Origin: Chrysomallon squamiferum
Lineage: Eukaryota; Animalia; Mollusca
Assembly (NCBI GenBank): GCA_012295275.1
Contig: CM022670.1
Span: forward strand, 7,812,001-7,876,000
Length of the DNA stretch: 64,000 bases
Direction of reading: 5' to 3'
Shown here: positions 1 through 54,312 of the stretch, one piece after another
How positions within the stretch are numbered: position 1 is the first letter of the stretch
Layout of the letters: every line of letters starts with the position of its first letter
Translations under genes and position numbers: made by a program
Notes under the pieces: model-generated
Databases searched by the model: none
What the model saw: only the letters and a program-made list of their open reading frames with translations
What the model was told of the DNA's origin: nothing

Positions 1-3000
1 TTGTAGGGCGTGGCTCCCCAGTCGTGACTTCGATCTGGAGTACTCTTGTTAGCAATGAGACTGGAGTCAGGACCGTAACAACACTGATTACCTGCTCCTT
101 TTGAACTGAAATAGATCATAAATTATGTATACATCAATATTTGTATATCAGATTATGGTGTCATTTATTAATGTAATAATTCATGCAAAGCACACAAAAT
201 GTGAAATACACTTCAGATGAATTTCTTTCTTGCTAAAATAAATTATCCCAGTATATACTAAATACTTCCAAGCTTTGCTTAATTTTTTATTTATTTACTT
301 TTTAAGAAAGCAGTTTATCAGTATTATTTTTCTTTCATGCTTCGTTGATAGCAACGGTTCTAGTATTTTAATACAAACGTAGGTTTGAAGGAACGAGCGC
401 AGTGAACTGAAGGTTTGTGTAAGTTGCAGTTTGTCTCGCTGTTGCTGTAGATGTTGCAGGCGTCGTCTTGTTGCCAACGTCCAAAGTCTGAAATGGCTTG
501 CTCCATCGTGGTAGGACACGGCAGAAGATCTTCCAACCAAGAGTTGTCTTTCTTGTCCTCGTCGTGCCATTTGTTACATCTGACATCAGTCCAGTTACTT
601 CCATATTGTGACGTCATGTTGTCAGATATAAACCAGCCTATAGGTGTTATTTTACTGGTCAAGGCACTAAAGTGTAACAAAACTCAAAATTATGCATGGG
701 TGTTTGTGAGTGTGTGATTAAAGTATAAATAAAATTATATTTAAGATATTATTTATGTTGTTCTTGTTATTATTTATACAAAATAAAAGTATAATAAATA
801 TATATTTAAGATATTATTCATGTTGCTCCTGTTATGTCTTATTCAAAGATAAAAGTATAACTAAATATATGTTTAAGATATTATTTATGTTTCTCTGGTT
901 ATTTTATACATAAAGACAAAAATATAAATAAATCTATATTTAAGATGTTATTTATGCTGTTTTTGTTGTTTTTTATATAAAAGTATAAATAAATTTACAT
1001 TTAATATATTATTTATGTTGTTATTTATATAAAGATAAAAGTATAACTAAATATATGTTTAATAAGTTATTTATGTTGTTCCCCTTATTTTGTTTAAAGA
1101 TAAAAGTATAAATAAATATATATTTAAGTTATTACTTATGTTATTCTTGTTATTTTGTATATAAAGATCAATATAAACAGTTCAGCCACATTTAGCGTTA
1201 CACTCATTATCTTTATATTACAATGAAGACAGGAGTTGAAATGCATGAATCAAATTACAAAATTGTAAAGAATTAACACTGATTCTATTAAATATCACTT
1301 ACACATGAGTATTTGAATATTCCCAGTCTTTTTTTCTTAAACCAACTTCAATCGCTCCAATATCAAAATTACATCTGTCACCTGAACATCGATGTTGTGA
1401 AGGTGAAAATGAAAATGTTCCAGAGTTTTTGACTTGATTTCCTAGAGTTGTTAGTTCTCTCCATTCTGTCTGTTGAAAATGTGATAATATTTTACTCATA
1501 AAAATAATTAATGATTAATATCAGATACAGATGTACTTGTAGTATTATATAATTGATAAATTTTCTTGTTGTAACATATCACAAATATATCTATGTACAT
1601 GTGTATTATATAATTGATAAATTTACTTATTGTAACATATCACAAACATATCTATCTATATGTGTATTATATAACTGATAAATTTTCTTGTTGTAACATA
1701 TCACAAATATATCTATCTATATGTGATATTAATATTTCACTGAAACATCTACATGTGGTAATTTGATCCACTGACCTCGTTTTCCGTTTCTCTGTATCCG
1801 ATTAACTTTACATCTACAGACACAGTGTTATTGTTTGAAATAAGACTTGAATTCCAAGTTAGGGTCAGATTAGTTGGATTAATATCTGTCCATTGTTGAT
1901 CTTTGTTTCCTTTTTCTAGCTTCACCTTGTATGGATATCTTCCCATTAGTGCTGAAACAGTCAATCAGTATACTTCATGTATTTAAAAAAACAGTATGGT
2001 TATTTCAGTTTTTTACGGCAATGTTTTTCTTGGGGATTTTTTTGTACCTAGTTTTTAATCATTAATGATAATGGTGATATAACAACATCAACAACAAAAT
2101 CAATAAAAATAACAACAGTAAATTGTATCAAAGTATTTTTGACATTTCACTTACCGATAGTTATTGTTGAGTTCAAGCAATTTCCGTGGACACAGAATGA
2201 AATTCGAGTTTCTCCGCGTTGAGTTAGCCTGGGCACGGGACAGCGAGCGTGTGCTGAATTCACCCTGAGTGCAGGTTTCTCTACTGTCTTACTGGAACCA
2301 AACTTGCATGTTATGTTTGCGTGTTCAGGTACAGAGAGATTTCCAGAGATATCCAGCATCCGTCCACCAAGAACAGGAGCGTAGCTCGGAGTAATCTCTA
2401 AAGCATTGCTCTCTGTAATTTGTAAACTTCAGACTAAAGATACTTGTAGCCGCTGTCCTTTTTTTGAAATTATTATTTATTTCTTTACGTTTTCGCAAGA
2501 AAAATAGCAAACCAGACTGATATATAGAAAGAGAAGGTACCTATGTGAATGGCATAATATTTCTTTAAAATTATAATTGCGTTCTTATATTCTACAGATT
2601 GTTACTTATAATAATAACAATAATAATAATAAAACCATTACTACTGCTACTACTGCATTTACTGCTATTACTACCACCACCACCACTATTAATACTACAC
2701 TATTACTACTAATAATAACAACACGACTAATAATAATGATGATGACAATGACATTGATTATGATGATGATGATTAAGATGATGATGATTATTATTATTAT
2801 TATTATTATTAATACTATTATTATTCTAGATGTTGTTATCATCATCATCATCATTATCAAAAATTATAATTACGTGCTTATTTTCTATAAATTATTACTC
2901 ATTGTACAATTATTACTACTACTACTAGTAGTAGTAGTAACAACAATAAAAACACAACTAATAATAATGATGATGATGATGATGATGATGATGATTATTA

Positions 3001-3158
3001 TTATTATTATTATTATTATTATTATTATTATTATTATTATTATTATTATAAACAAGAGAAAGAAAGACAACTGCTATATAAATAGTGTTATAAAAACTCT
3101 ACTCACTCTGTACTGACTGCACAACGGTTAAAAACACGCCTATCAGAATGAGGAACAT
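1..3158 (-). CDS. Copy D: NIDO-less Mesh/SUSD2-like paralog, close duplicate of copy C; 3' part lies outside the window
   Basis: Exons 3158-3107 (signal peptide identical to C), 2412-2155 (IPT), 1951-1776, 1469-1303, 666-379 (AMOP) and 105-<1 ([13 protein letters not shown]). Introns are also alignable to copy C. Confidence 0.88.
715..1175. repeat. AT-rich tandem repeat of about 55 bp in a copy D intron (counterpart at 12690-13590 in copy C)
   Basis: Recurrent AAAGTATAAATAAATATATTTAAGATATTATTTATGTTGTT units. Confidence 0.8.
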
Positions 3159-52800: not shown

Positions 52801-54312
52801 ACTTCGAAGCCCAGATCTATCTCAAGAGGTTGATCTAAGTTGCTGATGATGCTGTCGCCGAAGTTTTGCCCGTGATCAAATAAAGGAGTCTGACAATAAC
52901 ATTCTGTGTAATGAAAAAAATGTTAATATATAATTTTGTTACTTGCTATTACAGACATAAGTTATATATAACAGTTTAGAAGAGAAAATACTTTTGATAA
53001 CTATCGCTAAATCCTTGAGTTAAACTCCCTCGCTTCACTCCATCTTGCTAAGCTTTGTAAATAATTTAATATATAATTATTTTTGATATAAGTTAGCATA
53101 TTTATTAAGTGTTTTTGTTGGTTGTGTTTTATTGTTAATTTTTTGTTGTTTTCTTCTTTTTTTTTTCATTTGAGGTTGTTGTTTTTTGTTTGTTTCTTGC
53201 GGGTTATATTTTTTTAATTTTTTTGTAGGGATATTTTGATTTCTGCTTGTATGCTTTTTGCTGTTGTTATATATTCACCCTAACATTTTAATTATATTTC
53301 TCAGTATGTTGTGTTAAATCAGTCGGCTGTTTATCAGGATTACATAACTTGATAATCTTTTGTCTCTATTCAGGCTGTGATTCATCGCTTTGTCACCAAA
53401 TCCAGATCGAACTGACCTTTCACAAGATAATCATTTTAAATTCAGGTCGGCGTGTTTCTACACATTTATATTTAGTCACATTCTAAAATTGTAAATGCTT
53501 TCGTAATTCTATATACTATTATCCTTACTCAGTGTATTTAGTCATTTCACTTGTTACATATTTTATAGCGCGAAAGAAAGATAAATTAAACACTTTACTG
53601 ACACGACTGACTCGAATGCTATATACTATGGTGAAAAATAGAACTGAGCGGGGATCTAGGCATGGGGGAAATTGAGAACATTATGTCAATCATTTAAAGT
53701 AATTTCTTTTTTTTTTTTTTTTTTTTTTTTCCATTTTTATAATGATATTATATTAAATTATGTTTATATGAAAAGGCTCATCACTCCTATTTCTTCACAC
53801 ATCGGTCCGCATTTTTATAAACTTTCACCAATGAGGATTAAAATCAACCCTTTATGTAAAAAAAACGATCCTGATTCTGCTGCTGAATTCATATGAATTT
53901 ATCAGACATACAAACACACAGGCATGGACCTGAATATGCAAATGCATCGAAGTACACATTTTATAAGTTTAATATATATATATATATATGAAGTAATGGA
54001 ATTCATAGAGACAGATTTAAACACTGTCTTCTTCTTCTACTTTTTTGTAATCGCCGGTTATTCATCAACATATTAAAACAGTTTATATAAATAATTTATG
54101 GACACATACACTGTACATGCTAATTACATTACAATTTATACTAACATGGCTTTGAAACTAATACATTTATCAACACCGGTTTAATAATATAGAAAAAATA
54201 ATAATAACTGTAACCGAGTTATAGATGATGACTTACCTGGAAGGAAAACAGATAAAACAATGAAAGATATCCAAGACATTTTGTACTGAATCAAACTACT
54301 GACAATCTCCAT
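43842..54312 (-). CDS. mesh: Copy A: full-length Mesh/SUSD2-like type I membrane protein (signal peptide, NIDO, IPT/TIG, AMOP, VWD, Cys-rich, Sushi/CCP, TM, short tail), 18 exons, about 1086 aa
   Basis: Hand-assembled exons, all GT-AG with consistent phases, total 3261 nt: 54312-54237, 52903-52767, 52080-51727, 51289-51191, 50908-50722, 50457-50197, 49615-49440, 48913-48744, 48476-48189, 47697-47426, 46816-46679, 46404-46225, 46124-45979, 45795-45660, 45321-45076, 44898-44710, 44471-44339, 43914-43842. Motifs: NIDO ([26 protein letters not shown]), IPT ([11 protein letters not shown]...ARCPVP), AMOP ([33 protein letters not shown]), VWD ([19 protein letters not shown]), Sushi (CGLL...C...C...W...C), TM ([26 protein letters not shown]). 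The domain order matches Drosophila Mesh; orthology is not tested. Confidence 0.92.

What the first reader, a model, noticed from the sequence alone, without database searches (positions are those of the whole stretch)
1..54312. Tandem Mesh/SUSD2-like array with an ordered gradient of domain loss
Seen: four same-strand paralogs with open, phase-consistent exon chains. A has all domains, B lacks the Cys-rich and Sushi region, C lacks NIDO, Sushi and TM, and D lacks NIDO. The losses follow exon boundaries and keep the frame, with no stop codons in the retained exons. Known: Mesh is a smooth septate junction adhesion protein in Drosophila, and SUSD2/MUC4 share the AMOP-VWD module. Inference: this is a lineage-specific expansion turning a junction protein into a family of shorter surface proteins with new roles (epithelial surface, mucus, adhesion or recognition). 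I do not know of a description of such an array but cannot verify novelty.
Basis: partly seen in the sequence, partly recalled or inferred. Interest (0 to 1): 0.85.

Follow-up and report, generated by a model that had tools for sequence, protein, structure and literature searches.

The report
Snail Mesh array with swapped domain
A snail genome holds four tandem copies of a Mesh/SUSD2-type cell-surface gene, three of them shortened; one domain is nearly identical among the short copies while the rest has diverged, likely through gene conversion, making this a modest variant of a known kind of gene-family evolution.

Summary
The four-copy minus-strand array is real, with open, phase-matched exon chains (A 1086 aa, B 897, C 625, D cut by the window edge). 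RNA contigs join C's signal-peptide exon directly to the IPT exon, so the NIDO-less form is transcribed. The closest relatives are molluscan; the nearest is the snail Gigantopelta aegis.

1. The gradient has three steps, because D's 3' half lies outside the window.
2. The C8 loss cuts inside an exon.
3. C is probably not anchorless: it likely ends in a GPI-signal-like hydrophobic exon (junction not read from RNA).
4. The short lineage is not species-specific: Gigantopelta has a short paralog with the same indels, and a species-only clade is rejected (AU p=0.008). Extra copies and NIDO-less forms also occur in other animals.

B and C are near synonymous saturation (dS about 2.1) except in the two AMOP exons (dS 0.11; core 98% identical), and their introns do not align. 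This is domain-confined gene conversion, as in protocadherin clusters. Function is untested. Verdict: new variant of a known kind.

The parts
43842..54312 (-). Gene A, full-length Mesh/SUSD2-like, 18 exons, 1086 aa: signal peptide, NIDO, IPT, second beta-rich domain, AMOP, VWD, C8, Sushi-like, TM, tail. The VWD motif reads GDAH instead of GDPH.
   Evidence: ortholog of Gigantopelta P0001 in 3 of 4 partition trees and in the AU tests
45076..45321 (-). A exon 15, carrying the C8-3_MUC4 domain; cut to 57 nt in B and 63 nt in C
   Evidence: Pfam PF23263, E 3e-12; exon lengths
44710..44898 (-). A exon 16, Sushi-like domain; absent from B and C
   Evidence: no Pfam hit; phmmer to complement receptor 1, E 1e-4; weak Foldseek hits, many to CCP domains, none at E<=0.001
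39698..39973 (-). Orphan copy of B's NIDO exon 3, 96% identical in DNA, lying upstream of B's start codon; 3' end replaced
25897..37395 (-). Gene B, 17 exons, 897 aa: signal peptide, NIDO, IPT, AMOP, VWD, C8 stub, TM, short tail; last intron GC-AG; transcription not shown
30593..30880 (-). B exon 9 (first AMOP exon), homogenised with C/D: 2 differences from C in the last 184 nt, 22 in the first 104 nt
29669..29919 (-). B exon 10 (second AMOP exon), homogenised with C/D: 6 differences from C in the first 190 nt, 10 in the last 61 nt
7925..16262 (-). Gene C, 13 exons, 625 aa: signal peptide spliced directly to IPT, then AMOP, VWD, C8 stub and a predicted GPI-type tail
   Evidence: RNA joints exon 1-6 and 6-7, and a loose end matching C exon 8
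16211..16262 (-). C exon 1 (signal peptide), phase 1, spliced to exon 6 at 15651
   Evidence: RNA joint 15651/16211 in X1 and X3
11775..12590 (-). C AMOP exons 9 (12590-12303) and 10 (12025-11775) with a 277-nt intron that does not align to B's 673-nt intron
8779..8799 (-). Predicted 21-nt micro-exon of C, supplying small residues that would serve as a GPI attachment site
   Evidence: splice signals and frame only; not read from RNA
7925..8007 (-). Predicted last exon of C: hydrophobic stretch (mean Kyte-Doolittle 2.0 over 19 aa) ending 5 residues before the stop; poly(A) signal at 7701
6625..6673 (-). Relic of B's last exon (38 of 49 nt identical, stop at codon 2); likely the start of the block duplicated from B's last intron through C, which gave D
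1..3158 (-). Gene D, 5' part only (exons 1, 6-9 and part of 10), NIDO-less like C, 94% identical to C in exons; runs off the window
54951..55220 (+). Inverted, frameshifted copy of A exon 2 and flanks (90% identical), upstream of A

Best explanation
This is a tandem array of four Mesh/SUSD2-type genes in a gastropod, likely built by serial duplication of an already shortened copy, in which the AMOP exons of the short copies have likely been homogenised by gene conversion. Order of events (inferred): (1) before the split from Gigantopelta, full-length A duplicated, and the copy lost most of C8 and the Sushi exon and gained two small AMOP deletions; (2) later the short copy duplicated into B and a C/D ancestor, which lost exons 2-5 (NIDO) by a phase 1-1 deletion, so the signal peptide splices to IPT (splice shown in RNA for C); (3) a block from B's last intron through C duplicated to give D; (4) short conversion tracts kept the AMOP core of B, C and D nearly identical, while diverged introns stopped the tracts. 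Predicted products: A, a Mesh-like single-pass adhesion protein; B, a shorter single-pass form; C, a small surface protein likely held by a GPI anchor. All would display nearly the same AMOP domain in B-D on different scaffolds, most likely at an epithelial surface. A, B and C lack the GDPH motif and so would not self-cleave.
For: Shown: open phase-matched chains; no missed exons in three gaps; RNA joints for C exons 1-6-7-8; dN/dS 0.22-0.33 over whole alignments between A, B and C/D, and 0.50 for C/D. Gigantopelta P0032 shares the 5-aa and 2-aa AMOP deletions and stops matching at the same place in C8. With 8 taxa, the tree (A,G-full),((B,C),G-short) is best of 5 in all 3 partitions; the species-clade tree is rejected (AU p=0.008 outside AMOP, 6e-5 in AMOP). 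B/C synonymous differences are 12 of 115 sites in exons 9-10 against 186 of 264 elsewhere (Fisher p=4e-29; B/D p=2e-14). No B/C intron of 9 tested aligns, whereas the 5 C/D introns are 88-91% identical. Collinear similarity runs from B's last exon to C exon 1 and from the relic exon to D exon 1. The length of an X3 contig (1632 nt beyond exon 7) fits a transcript that uses the hydrophobic last exon and ends near the poly(A) signal.
Against: B's transcription was not shown. D's rests on one 118-nt exonic contig carrying 3 of 4 D-diagnostic bases and no joint. C's 3' junctions were not read from RNA. A second donor would read the last exon in another frame, giving a short TM followed by basic residues that weakly resembles B's TM (shuffle p=0.034, against p=0.011 for the modelled frame with P0032's tail). 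The contig length cannot tell whether the micro-exon is included. No GPI predictor was run. In the IPT and NIDO partitions the position of P0032 is not resolved with B-D, and the branch uniting the short copies has bootstrap 46 outside AMOP in the free tree. B+C form a clade although C and P0032 share a tail type that B lacks; this is unexplained. All RNA runs come from one study and the tissue is unknown. Function is inferred from Drosophila Mesh and human SUSD2/MUC4 only.
Confidence: 0.72

Rival explanations
1. AMOP identity among B, C and D is kept by selection: conversion is tolerated or favoured in AMOP because the copies must share one binding surface, and is purged elsewhere because the other domains must differ, as in clustered protocadherins.
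For: The 98%-identical core (8 differences in 374 nt, B/C) coincides with the Pfam AMOP match; identity falls to about 80% at the exon ends outside it, inside the same exons. A is excluded (dS 1.2 to B and C in the same exons). One-domain homogenisation is described for protocadherins (PMC3966226, passages).
Against: AMOP is also the most conserved part of the family (80% A to Gigantopelta in exon 10), so it is where conversion would persist neutrally. dN/dS inside the tract is 0.55-0.60, not especially low. An older tract appears between A and B in NIDO exon 5 (p=6e-5, one of 16 exons), so conversion is not unique to AMOP.
Confidence: 0.25
2. B-D are decaying or nearly neutral duplicates in an unstable, repeat-rich region, and their domain losses have no adaptive meaning.
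For: Debris surrounds the genes: an orphan exon, an inverted exon piece, a relic last exon, repeated intergenic blocks and satellites. C/D dN/dS is 0.50. The VWD start is eroded in B and C.
Against: Frames and splice sites are intact despite dS of about 2 between B and C, where dN/dS is 0.19 outside AMOP. C is spliced in RNA. The short lineage persists in Gigantopelta, and its predicted fold is confident over residues about 26-840 (mean pLDDT 85.5).
Confidence: 0.1
3. C is a single-pass or secreted protein rather than GPI-anchored, through a different donor or last exon.
For: Exon 15 has a second possible donor 4 nt downstream. The other frame of the last exon reads as a short TM plus basic residues, and the exon is weakly similar in DNA to B's TM exon (p=0.024).
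Against: The first donor matches the consensus better and keeps the ancestral phase 1. The micro-exon has a stop in phase 2. The modelled frame resembles the tail of Gigantopelta P0032 (p=0.011, partly a composition effect).
Confidence: 0.3
4. The exon-limited identity is an assembly or polishing artefact, or C and D are two haplotypes of one gene.
For: A frameshift in the neighbouring STELLO-like gene hints at indel errors in the assembly. Read depth could not be measured.
Against: B, C and D still differ from each other in exons 9-10 (39 nt between B and C over 178 codons), and the flanking exons are about 60% identical, too far apart for cross-mapping. C and D differ by 6% in exons and 9-12% in introns, with large indels and a transposon fragment upstream of D only. 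C-type and D-type bases both occur in run X1.
Confidence: 0.05

Closest known systems
Drosophila/insect Mesh (smooth septate junction protein)
   Same: A has the same domain order: NIDO, TIG/IPT, AMOP, VWD, Sushi, single TM (PMC4964579, passages).
   Different: B-D lack Sushi and most of C8; C/D lack NIDO; C probably lacks a cytoplasmic tail. Junction localisation and a Snakeskin partner were not tested. Orthology to insect Mesh was not tested with insect sequences.
Gigantopelta aegis SUSD2-like XP_041357710 (P0001) and protein mesh-like XP_041359373 (P0032)
   Same: P0001 is A's ortholog (59-80% per exon). P0032 shares the AMOP deletions, the loss of C8 and Sushi, and a short hydrophobic tail with the short copies. 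Both lie on a contig of the same length.
   Different: P0032 keeps NIDO, and only one short copy was found for that species (word-limited searches). Its AMOP is 55-59% identical to B/C and is not homogenised with them. P0001 keeps GDPH. Adjacency of the two genes was not checked.
Human SUSD2 and MUC4 (AMOP-VWD surface proteins)
   Same: AMOP-VWD core and C8-3_MUC4 domain in A. SUSD2 has no NIDO domain (recalled), like C/D.
   Different: SUSD2 and MUC4 are cleaved at GDPH (PMC6696261 abstract; PMC10880436 passages); the motif is absent from A, B and C. No mucin repeat region or somatomedin B domain appears in the models.
Vertebrate clustered protocadherins (one-domain homogenisation by gene conversion)
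   Same: Tandem adhesion-type paralogs in which one extracellular domain is homogenised while the rest diverges (PMC3966226, passages on Noonan et al. 2004; the original paper was not held).
   Different: Here the tract spans two exons and skips the intron between them; each copy is a whole gene with its own first and last exon; there are only three short copies in view and no shared constant exons.
Other duplicated or NIDO-less SUSD2-like genes in invertebrates
   Same: Haliotis asinina has a 2011-aa model with two full ectodomains plus another copy on a contig of the same length; Dreissena has two copies. Signal peptide directly before IPT without NIDO occurs in Ruditapes P0048, Branchiostoma P0081 and unnamed P0080. 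Terminal hydrophobic tails occur in Lottia, Patella, Mytilus and Lineus models.
   Different: These are database gene models, not checked against RNA here; the Haliotis duplicates keep all domains.

Membership tests
Mesh/SUSD2-like family | AMOP domain followed by VWD | tested here: met
   Pfam AMOP above cut-off in exons of A, B and C; VWD by family HMM in A, B, C; the P0032 model matches mucin and VWF entries by fold. D: AMOP part only.
Mesh/SUSD2-like family | NIDO and IPT/TIG domains N-terminal to AMOP | tested here: met
   A and B have both (single NIDO exons score just under the Pfam cut-off; the family HMM covers the whole domain); C and D have IPT only. Not met for NIDO in C/D.
Mesh/SUSD2-like family | Sushi domain before the TM | tested here: inconclusive
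   A exon 16: no Pfam hit, phmmer E 1e-4 to complement receptor 1, weak CCP fold hits. Absent in B and C. D unknown.
Mesh/SUSD2-like family | Single-pass TM with cytoplasmic tail | tested here: met
   A and B: hydropathy 3.4-3.6 with 29-37 residues after; not met for C (2.0, 5 residues after).
SUSD2/MUC4-type self-cleaving VWD proteins | GDPH motif at the start of VWD | tested here: not met
   A has GDAH; B and C have lost it; P0032 has lost it; P0001 keeps it.
Septate junction Mesh (function) | Localises to smooth septate junctions with Snakeskin and mediates cell adhesion | not testable with these tools
   Needs localisation and cell assays.
GPI-anchored protein (copy C) | N-terminal signal peptide, small residues at the attachment site, short spacer, hydrophobic C-terminus without tail (pattern recalled) | tested here: inconclusive
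   The pattern fits the modelled chain by eye and hydropathy; junctions not read from RNA; no predictor available.
Interlocus gene conversion tract | Local drop of synonymous divergence between old paralogs, not shared with the ortholog in a sister species | tested here: met
   dS 0.11 against about 2.1, p=4e-29; P0032 is 55-59% identical in the same exons; AMOP branches of B/C are 0.07-0.08 against 0.32-0.59 elsewhere.
Interlocus gene conversion tract | Shared polymorphism between paralogs in the population | not tested

The most novel reading that the evidence does not exclude
The short copies form a small protocadherin-like recognition system on a snail epithelium: selection keeps one shared AMOP binding surface by conversion while the scaffolds, NIDO content and membrane anchor diversify. 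C's GPI-type tail may have arisen by reading the ancestral TM exon in a shifted frame. More copies probably lie beyond the window: RNA holds exon 6 variants that are neither C nor D. This would give a natural domain-deletion series for the still poorly understood AMOP domain, possibly at a host-microbe surface.
Probability: 0.17. Interest if true: 0.7.

Novelty: new variant of a known kind. Interest (0 to 1): 0.4.

Why it matters
No solved structure is detectably related in sequence to the full-length protein (0 hits at E<=0.01), and my searches found no study of this family in gastropods. A natural series with and without NIDO, C8, Sushi, GDPH cleavage and TM lets one test which parts Mesh-type adhesion needs. 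The AMOP tract is a clean example of conversion confined to two exons between paralogs at synonymous saturation; it would mislead any AMOP-based phylogeny of the family. Neither tandem duplication nor domain loss is unusual here, so the finding is of moderate interest.

Tried and rejected
No whole genome was held, so the array could not be extended leftward, D could not be completed and depth could not be measured.

Run X2 covered only part of exon 6 with a variant haplotype and showed no joint; run X5 (kind not on record) covered introns and showed no joint. The small word shares of X1-X4 on 9500-12640 (0.09-0.15) are not used as evidence. X4 was never laid.

No database protein matched the window's own copies. 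The best hit to C exon 9 was 64% (P0032) among 8 candidates, so absence of C-type genes elsewhere is weakly tested. P0038 (99 aa, ENA, 65% to P0032, 54-55% to B-D) may mark the short lineage in another snail; not resolved.

Considered and set aside: (a) the relic at 6673-6625 as C's own lost tail exon; collinearity shows it more likely starts the block that made D. (b) One long DNA conversion spanning exons 9-10; the intron should then be about 88% identical like C/D introns, and it does not align. (c) cDNA-templated conversion across the junction; this would be expected to remove the intron (general knowledge), and the intron is present. (d) B's NIDO exons splicing into C; the contigs seen join C's own exon 1, though rarer forms are not excluded. 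(e) A terminal exon from the acceptor at 9190 or read-through of exon 15; the X3 contig would end at 8847 or 9213, with no poly(A) hexamer within 80 nt upstream.

Literature: searches found no description of this array. Term look-ups in the main text of four vent-snail papers gave 0 hits for AMOP, mesh and sushi; their supplements were not searched and may list these genes. Two look-ups of earlier scan findings returned nothing.
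Full report
Source and family. The window is AT-rich, microsatellite-rich eukaryotic DNA; no whole genome is held. One AMOP exon of copy A found 31 proteins among 44 candidates. Of the 28 named ones, 27 are molluscan and one is nemertean; the best is Gigantopelta aegis SUSD2-like P0001 at 80%. A shares its C-terminal motif and 59-80% per-exon identity with P0001 over exons 3-16. The source is therefore a gastropod close to Gigantopelta (inference); I did not establish the species.

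The observation. Self-comparison and tblastn show four minus-strand copies. Exon chains built from coordinates give A 1086 aa (18 exons), B 897 aa (17), C 625 aa (13) and D 348 codons up to the window edge, with no internal stops; 49 of 50 introns are GT-AG and one is GC-AG, and phases agree between copies. The search was guided by positions and phases that I supplied, so it verifies rather than discovers. Pfam finds NIDO, TIG, AMOP and C8-3_MUC4 in single exons. A's exon 16 is only weakly confirmed as Sushi. Family HMMs and tblastn found no missed exons in the three gaps where B, C or D lack domains; they did find an orphan NIDO exon upstream of B and an inverted piece of A exon 2.

Corrections. 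D runs off the window inside exon 10, so its 3' architecture is unknown and the 'gradient' is A > B > C. NIDO (exons 2-5) and Sushi (exon 16) are lost as phase 1-1 units, but C8 is lost by cutting exon 15 from 246 to about 60 nt, and exon 14 is shortened. C does not simply stop: a 21-nt micro-exon and an 83-nt hydrophobic exon follow in frame and give a tail that fits the recalled pattern of a GPI signal. This tail is a prediction. A second donor would give another, also hydrophobic, frame. A, B and C all lack the GDPH motif at which SUSD2 is cleaved (PMC6696261 abstract). PMC10880436 (passages) argues that the trafficking defect of the SUSD2 deletion mutant was a folding effect, so losing the motif need not block surface delivery.

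Transcription. Five runs hold words of C; four were laid on 15000-16440. Contigs of X1 and X3 join exon 1 to exon 6 (15651/16211) and exon 6 to exon 7, and continue with the first 30 nt of C's, not D's, exon 8. X2 and X5 showed no joint. One 118-nt X1 contig has 3 of 4 D-diagnostic bases; two other contigs (X1, X2) each carry 4 changes found in neither C nor D, suggesting more copies or divergent alleles. An X3 contig extends 1632 nt beyond exon 7, which fits the model ending 11 nt (with micro-exon) or 32 nt (without) after the AATAAA at 7701. C's 3' junctions and B's transcription were not read. All RNA runs are from one study.

Selection. Nei-Gojobori estimates give dN/dS 0.25 (A/B), 0.23 (A/C), 0.19 (B/C outside AMOP; dS near saturation, so rough) and 0.50 (C/D, 21 synonymous and 37 nonsynonymous changes, p=0.015). 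C and D are 94% identical in exons and 88-91% in 5 introns of very different lengths, which argues against haplotypes.

Age. Gigantopelta has a second protein, P0032 (885 aa, 'protein mesh-like'), found with C exon 9. It has NIDO, AMOP and a weak VWD match but no C8 or Sushi. It shares a 5-aa and a 2-aa AMOP deletion with B and C (D shows the first; the second lies beyond the edge), and it has a short hydrophobic tail. With 8 taxa, the tree pairing A with P0001 and (B,C) with P0032 is best of five in all three partitions. A species-only clade is rejected (AU p=0.008 outside AMOP), as are P0032 as sister to B or to C alone (p=0.002, 0.004). The 18-taxon IPT and 14-taxon NIDO trees do not resolve P0032's place, and outside AMOP the free tree gives this grouping only 46% bootstrap. 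An AlphaFold model of P0032 is confident up to about residue 840 (mean pLDDT 85.5) and matches mucin and VWF entries, so the short form is predicted to fold without C8. Duplication and domain loss recur in the family. Among 80 database proteins of 550 aa or more, three have a signal-peptide-like start directly before IPT (Ruditapes, Branchiostoma, one unnamed), and Haliotis asinina has a model with two ectodomains in tandem.

The unnoticed feature. B and C differ at 186 of 264 synonymous sites outside exons 9-10 but at 12 of 115 inside (dS about 2.1 against 0.11; p=4e-29); B/D behaves the same way (p=2e-14). The core of 374 nt has 8 differences and matches the Pfam AMOP region; the outer ends of the two exons are about 80% identical; the match ends within 9 nt of the splice sites, and none of 9 B/C introns aligns. 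A (dS 1.2) and P0032 (55-59% aa) are not part of it, so this is not deep conservation. The simplest mechanism is repeated short-tract conversion within each exon, blocked by diverged introns (inference). A weaker, older tract appears between A and B in exon 5 (p=6e-5, one of 16 exons). Whether selection maintains the AMOP tract is open: AMOP is also the most conserved region and so the likeliest to keep converting neutrally.

How it probably works. Shown: anatomy, open frames, C's 5' splicing, local homogenisation, older origin of the short lineage. Inferred: order of duplications, conversion mechanism, GPI anchor. From established knowledge: insect Mesh has A's domain order, is needed for smooth septate junctions and causes cell adhesion (PMC4964579, passages). 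A is likely a Mesh-like adhesion protein; B and C would be shorter surface proteins showing nearly the same AMOP domain, C without signalling tail. No role is tested.

Comparison and novelty. All copies belong to the Mesh/SUSD2-like family by their AMOP(-VWD) core; none of A-C meets the GDPH feature; junction function is untestable here. One-domain homogenisation in a tandem adhesion cluster is known from protocadherins (PMC3966226, passages); the opposite pattern, introns converted and exons protected, is known from opsins (PMC3924837, passages). Nine paper searches and term look-ups in four vent-snail papers found no description of this array; supplements were not searched and subscription journals are mostly missing. 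No solved structure is related by sequence. Verdict: real, probably undescribed, a new variant of known processes; interest 0.4.

Noticed in passing
window 60339-62338 (+), with a likely first exon near 59345-59508: STELLO-family glycosyltransferase-like gene (Pfam PF03385, E 2e-19) on the opposite strand. The long exon appears frameshifted near 61930, where a second ORF (61835-62338) continues: assembly indel or pseudogene.
   Followed up: partly
window 4442-4900 (-): Fragment of a Tigger/pogo-like element with a weak CENP-B N-terminal HTH match (E 0.0015, below cut-off), upstream of D and not upstream of C.
   Followed up: partly
window 17400-25600: The B-C intergenic region holds three diverged tandem copies of a 2-3 kb block with 24-25 bp and 41 bp satellites; a single shorter version lies upstream of D (4040-6680).
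   Followed up: no
window 14154-14985: 29-bp minisatellite (28.5 copies) expanded in C's intron 7, not in D's.
   Followed up: no
window 39698-39973 (-): Recent orphan duplicate of B's NIDO exon 3 (96% nt) with an intact acceptor and open frame, 2.3 kb upstream of B's start codon; use in any transcript unknown.
   Followed up: partly
window 47680-47823: 72-bp tandem duplication of the acceptor region of A exon 10, giving a degenerate second copy in the intron.
   Followed up: no
window 50717-50911 and 32968-33162: A and B are 84% identical in NIDO exon 5 (pS 0.34 against 0.52-0.91 in other exons): likely an older conversion tract.
   Followed up: partly
P0037 (Haliotis asinina): 2011-aa model with two complete ectodomains in series: either two tandem genes fused by annotation or a true doubled protein.
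   Followed up: no
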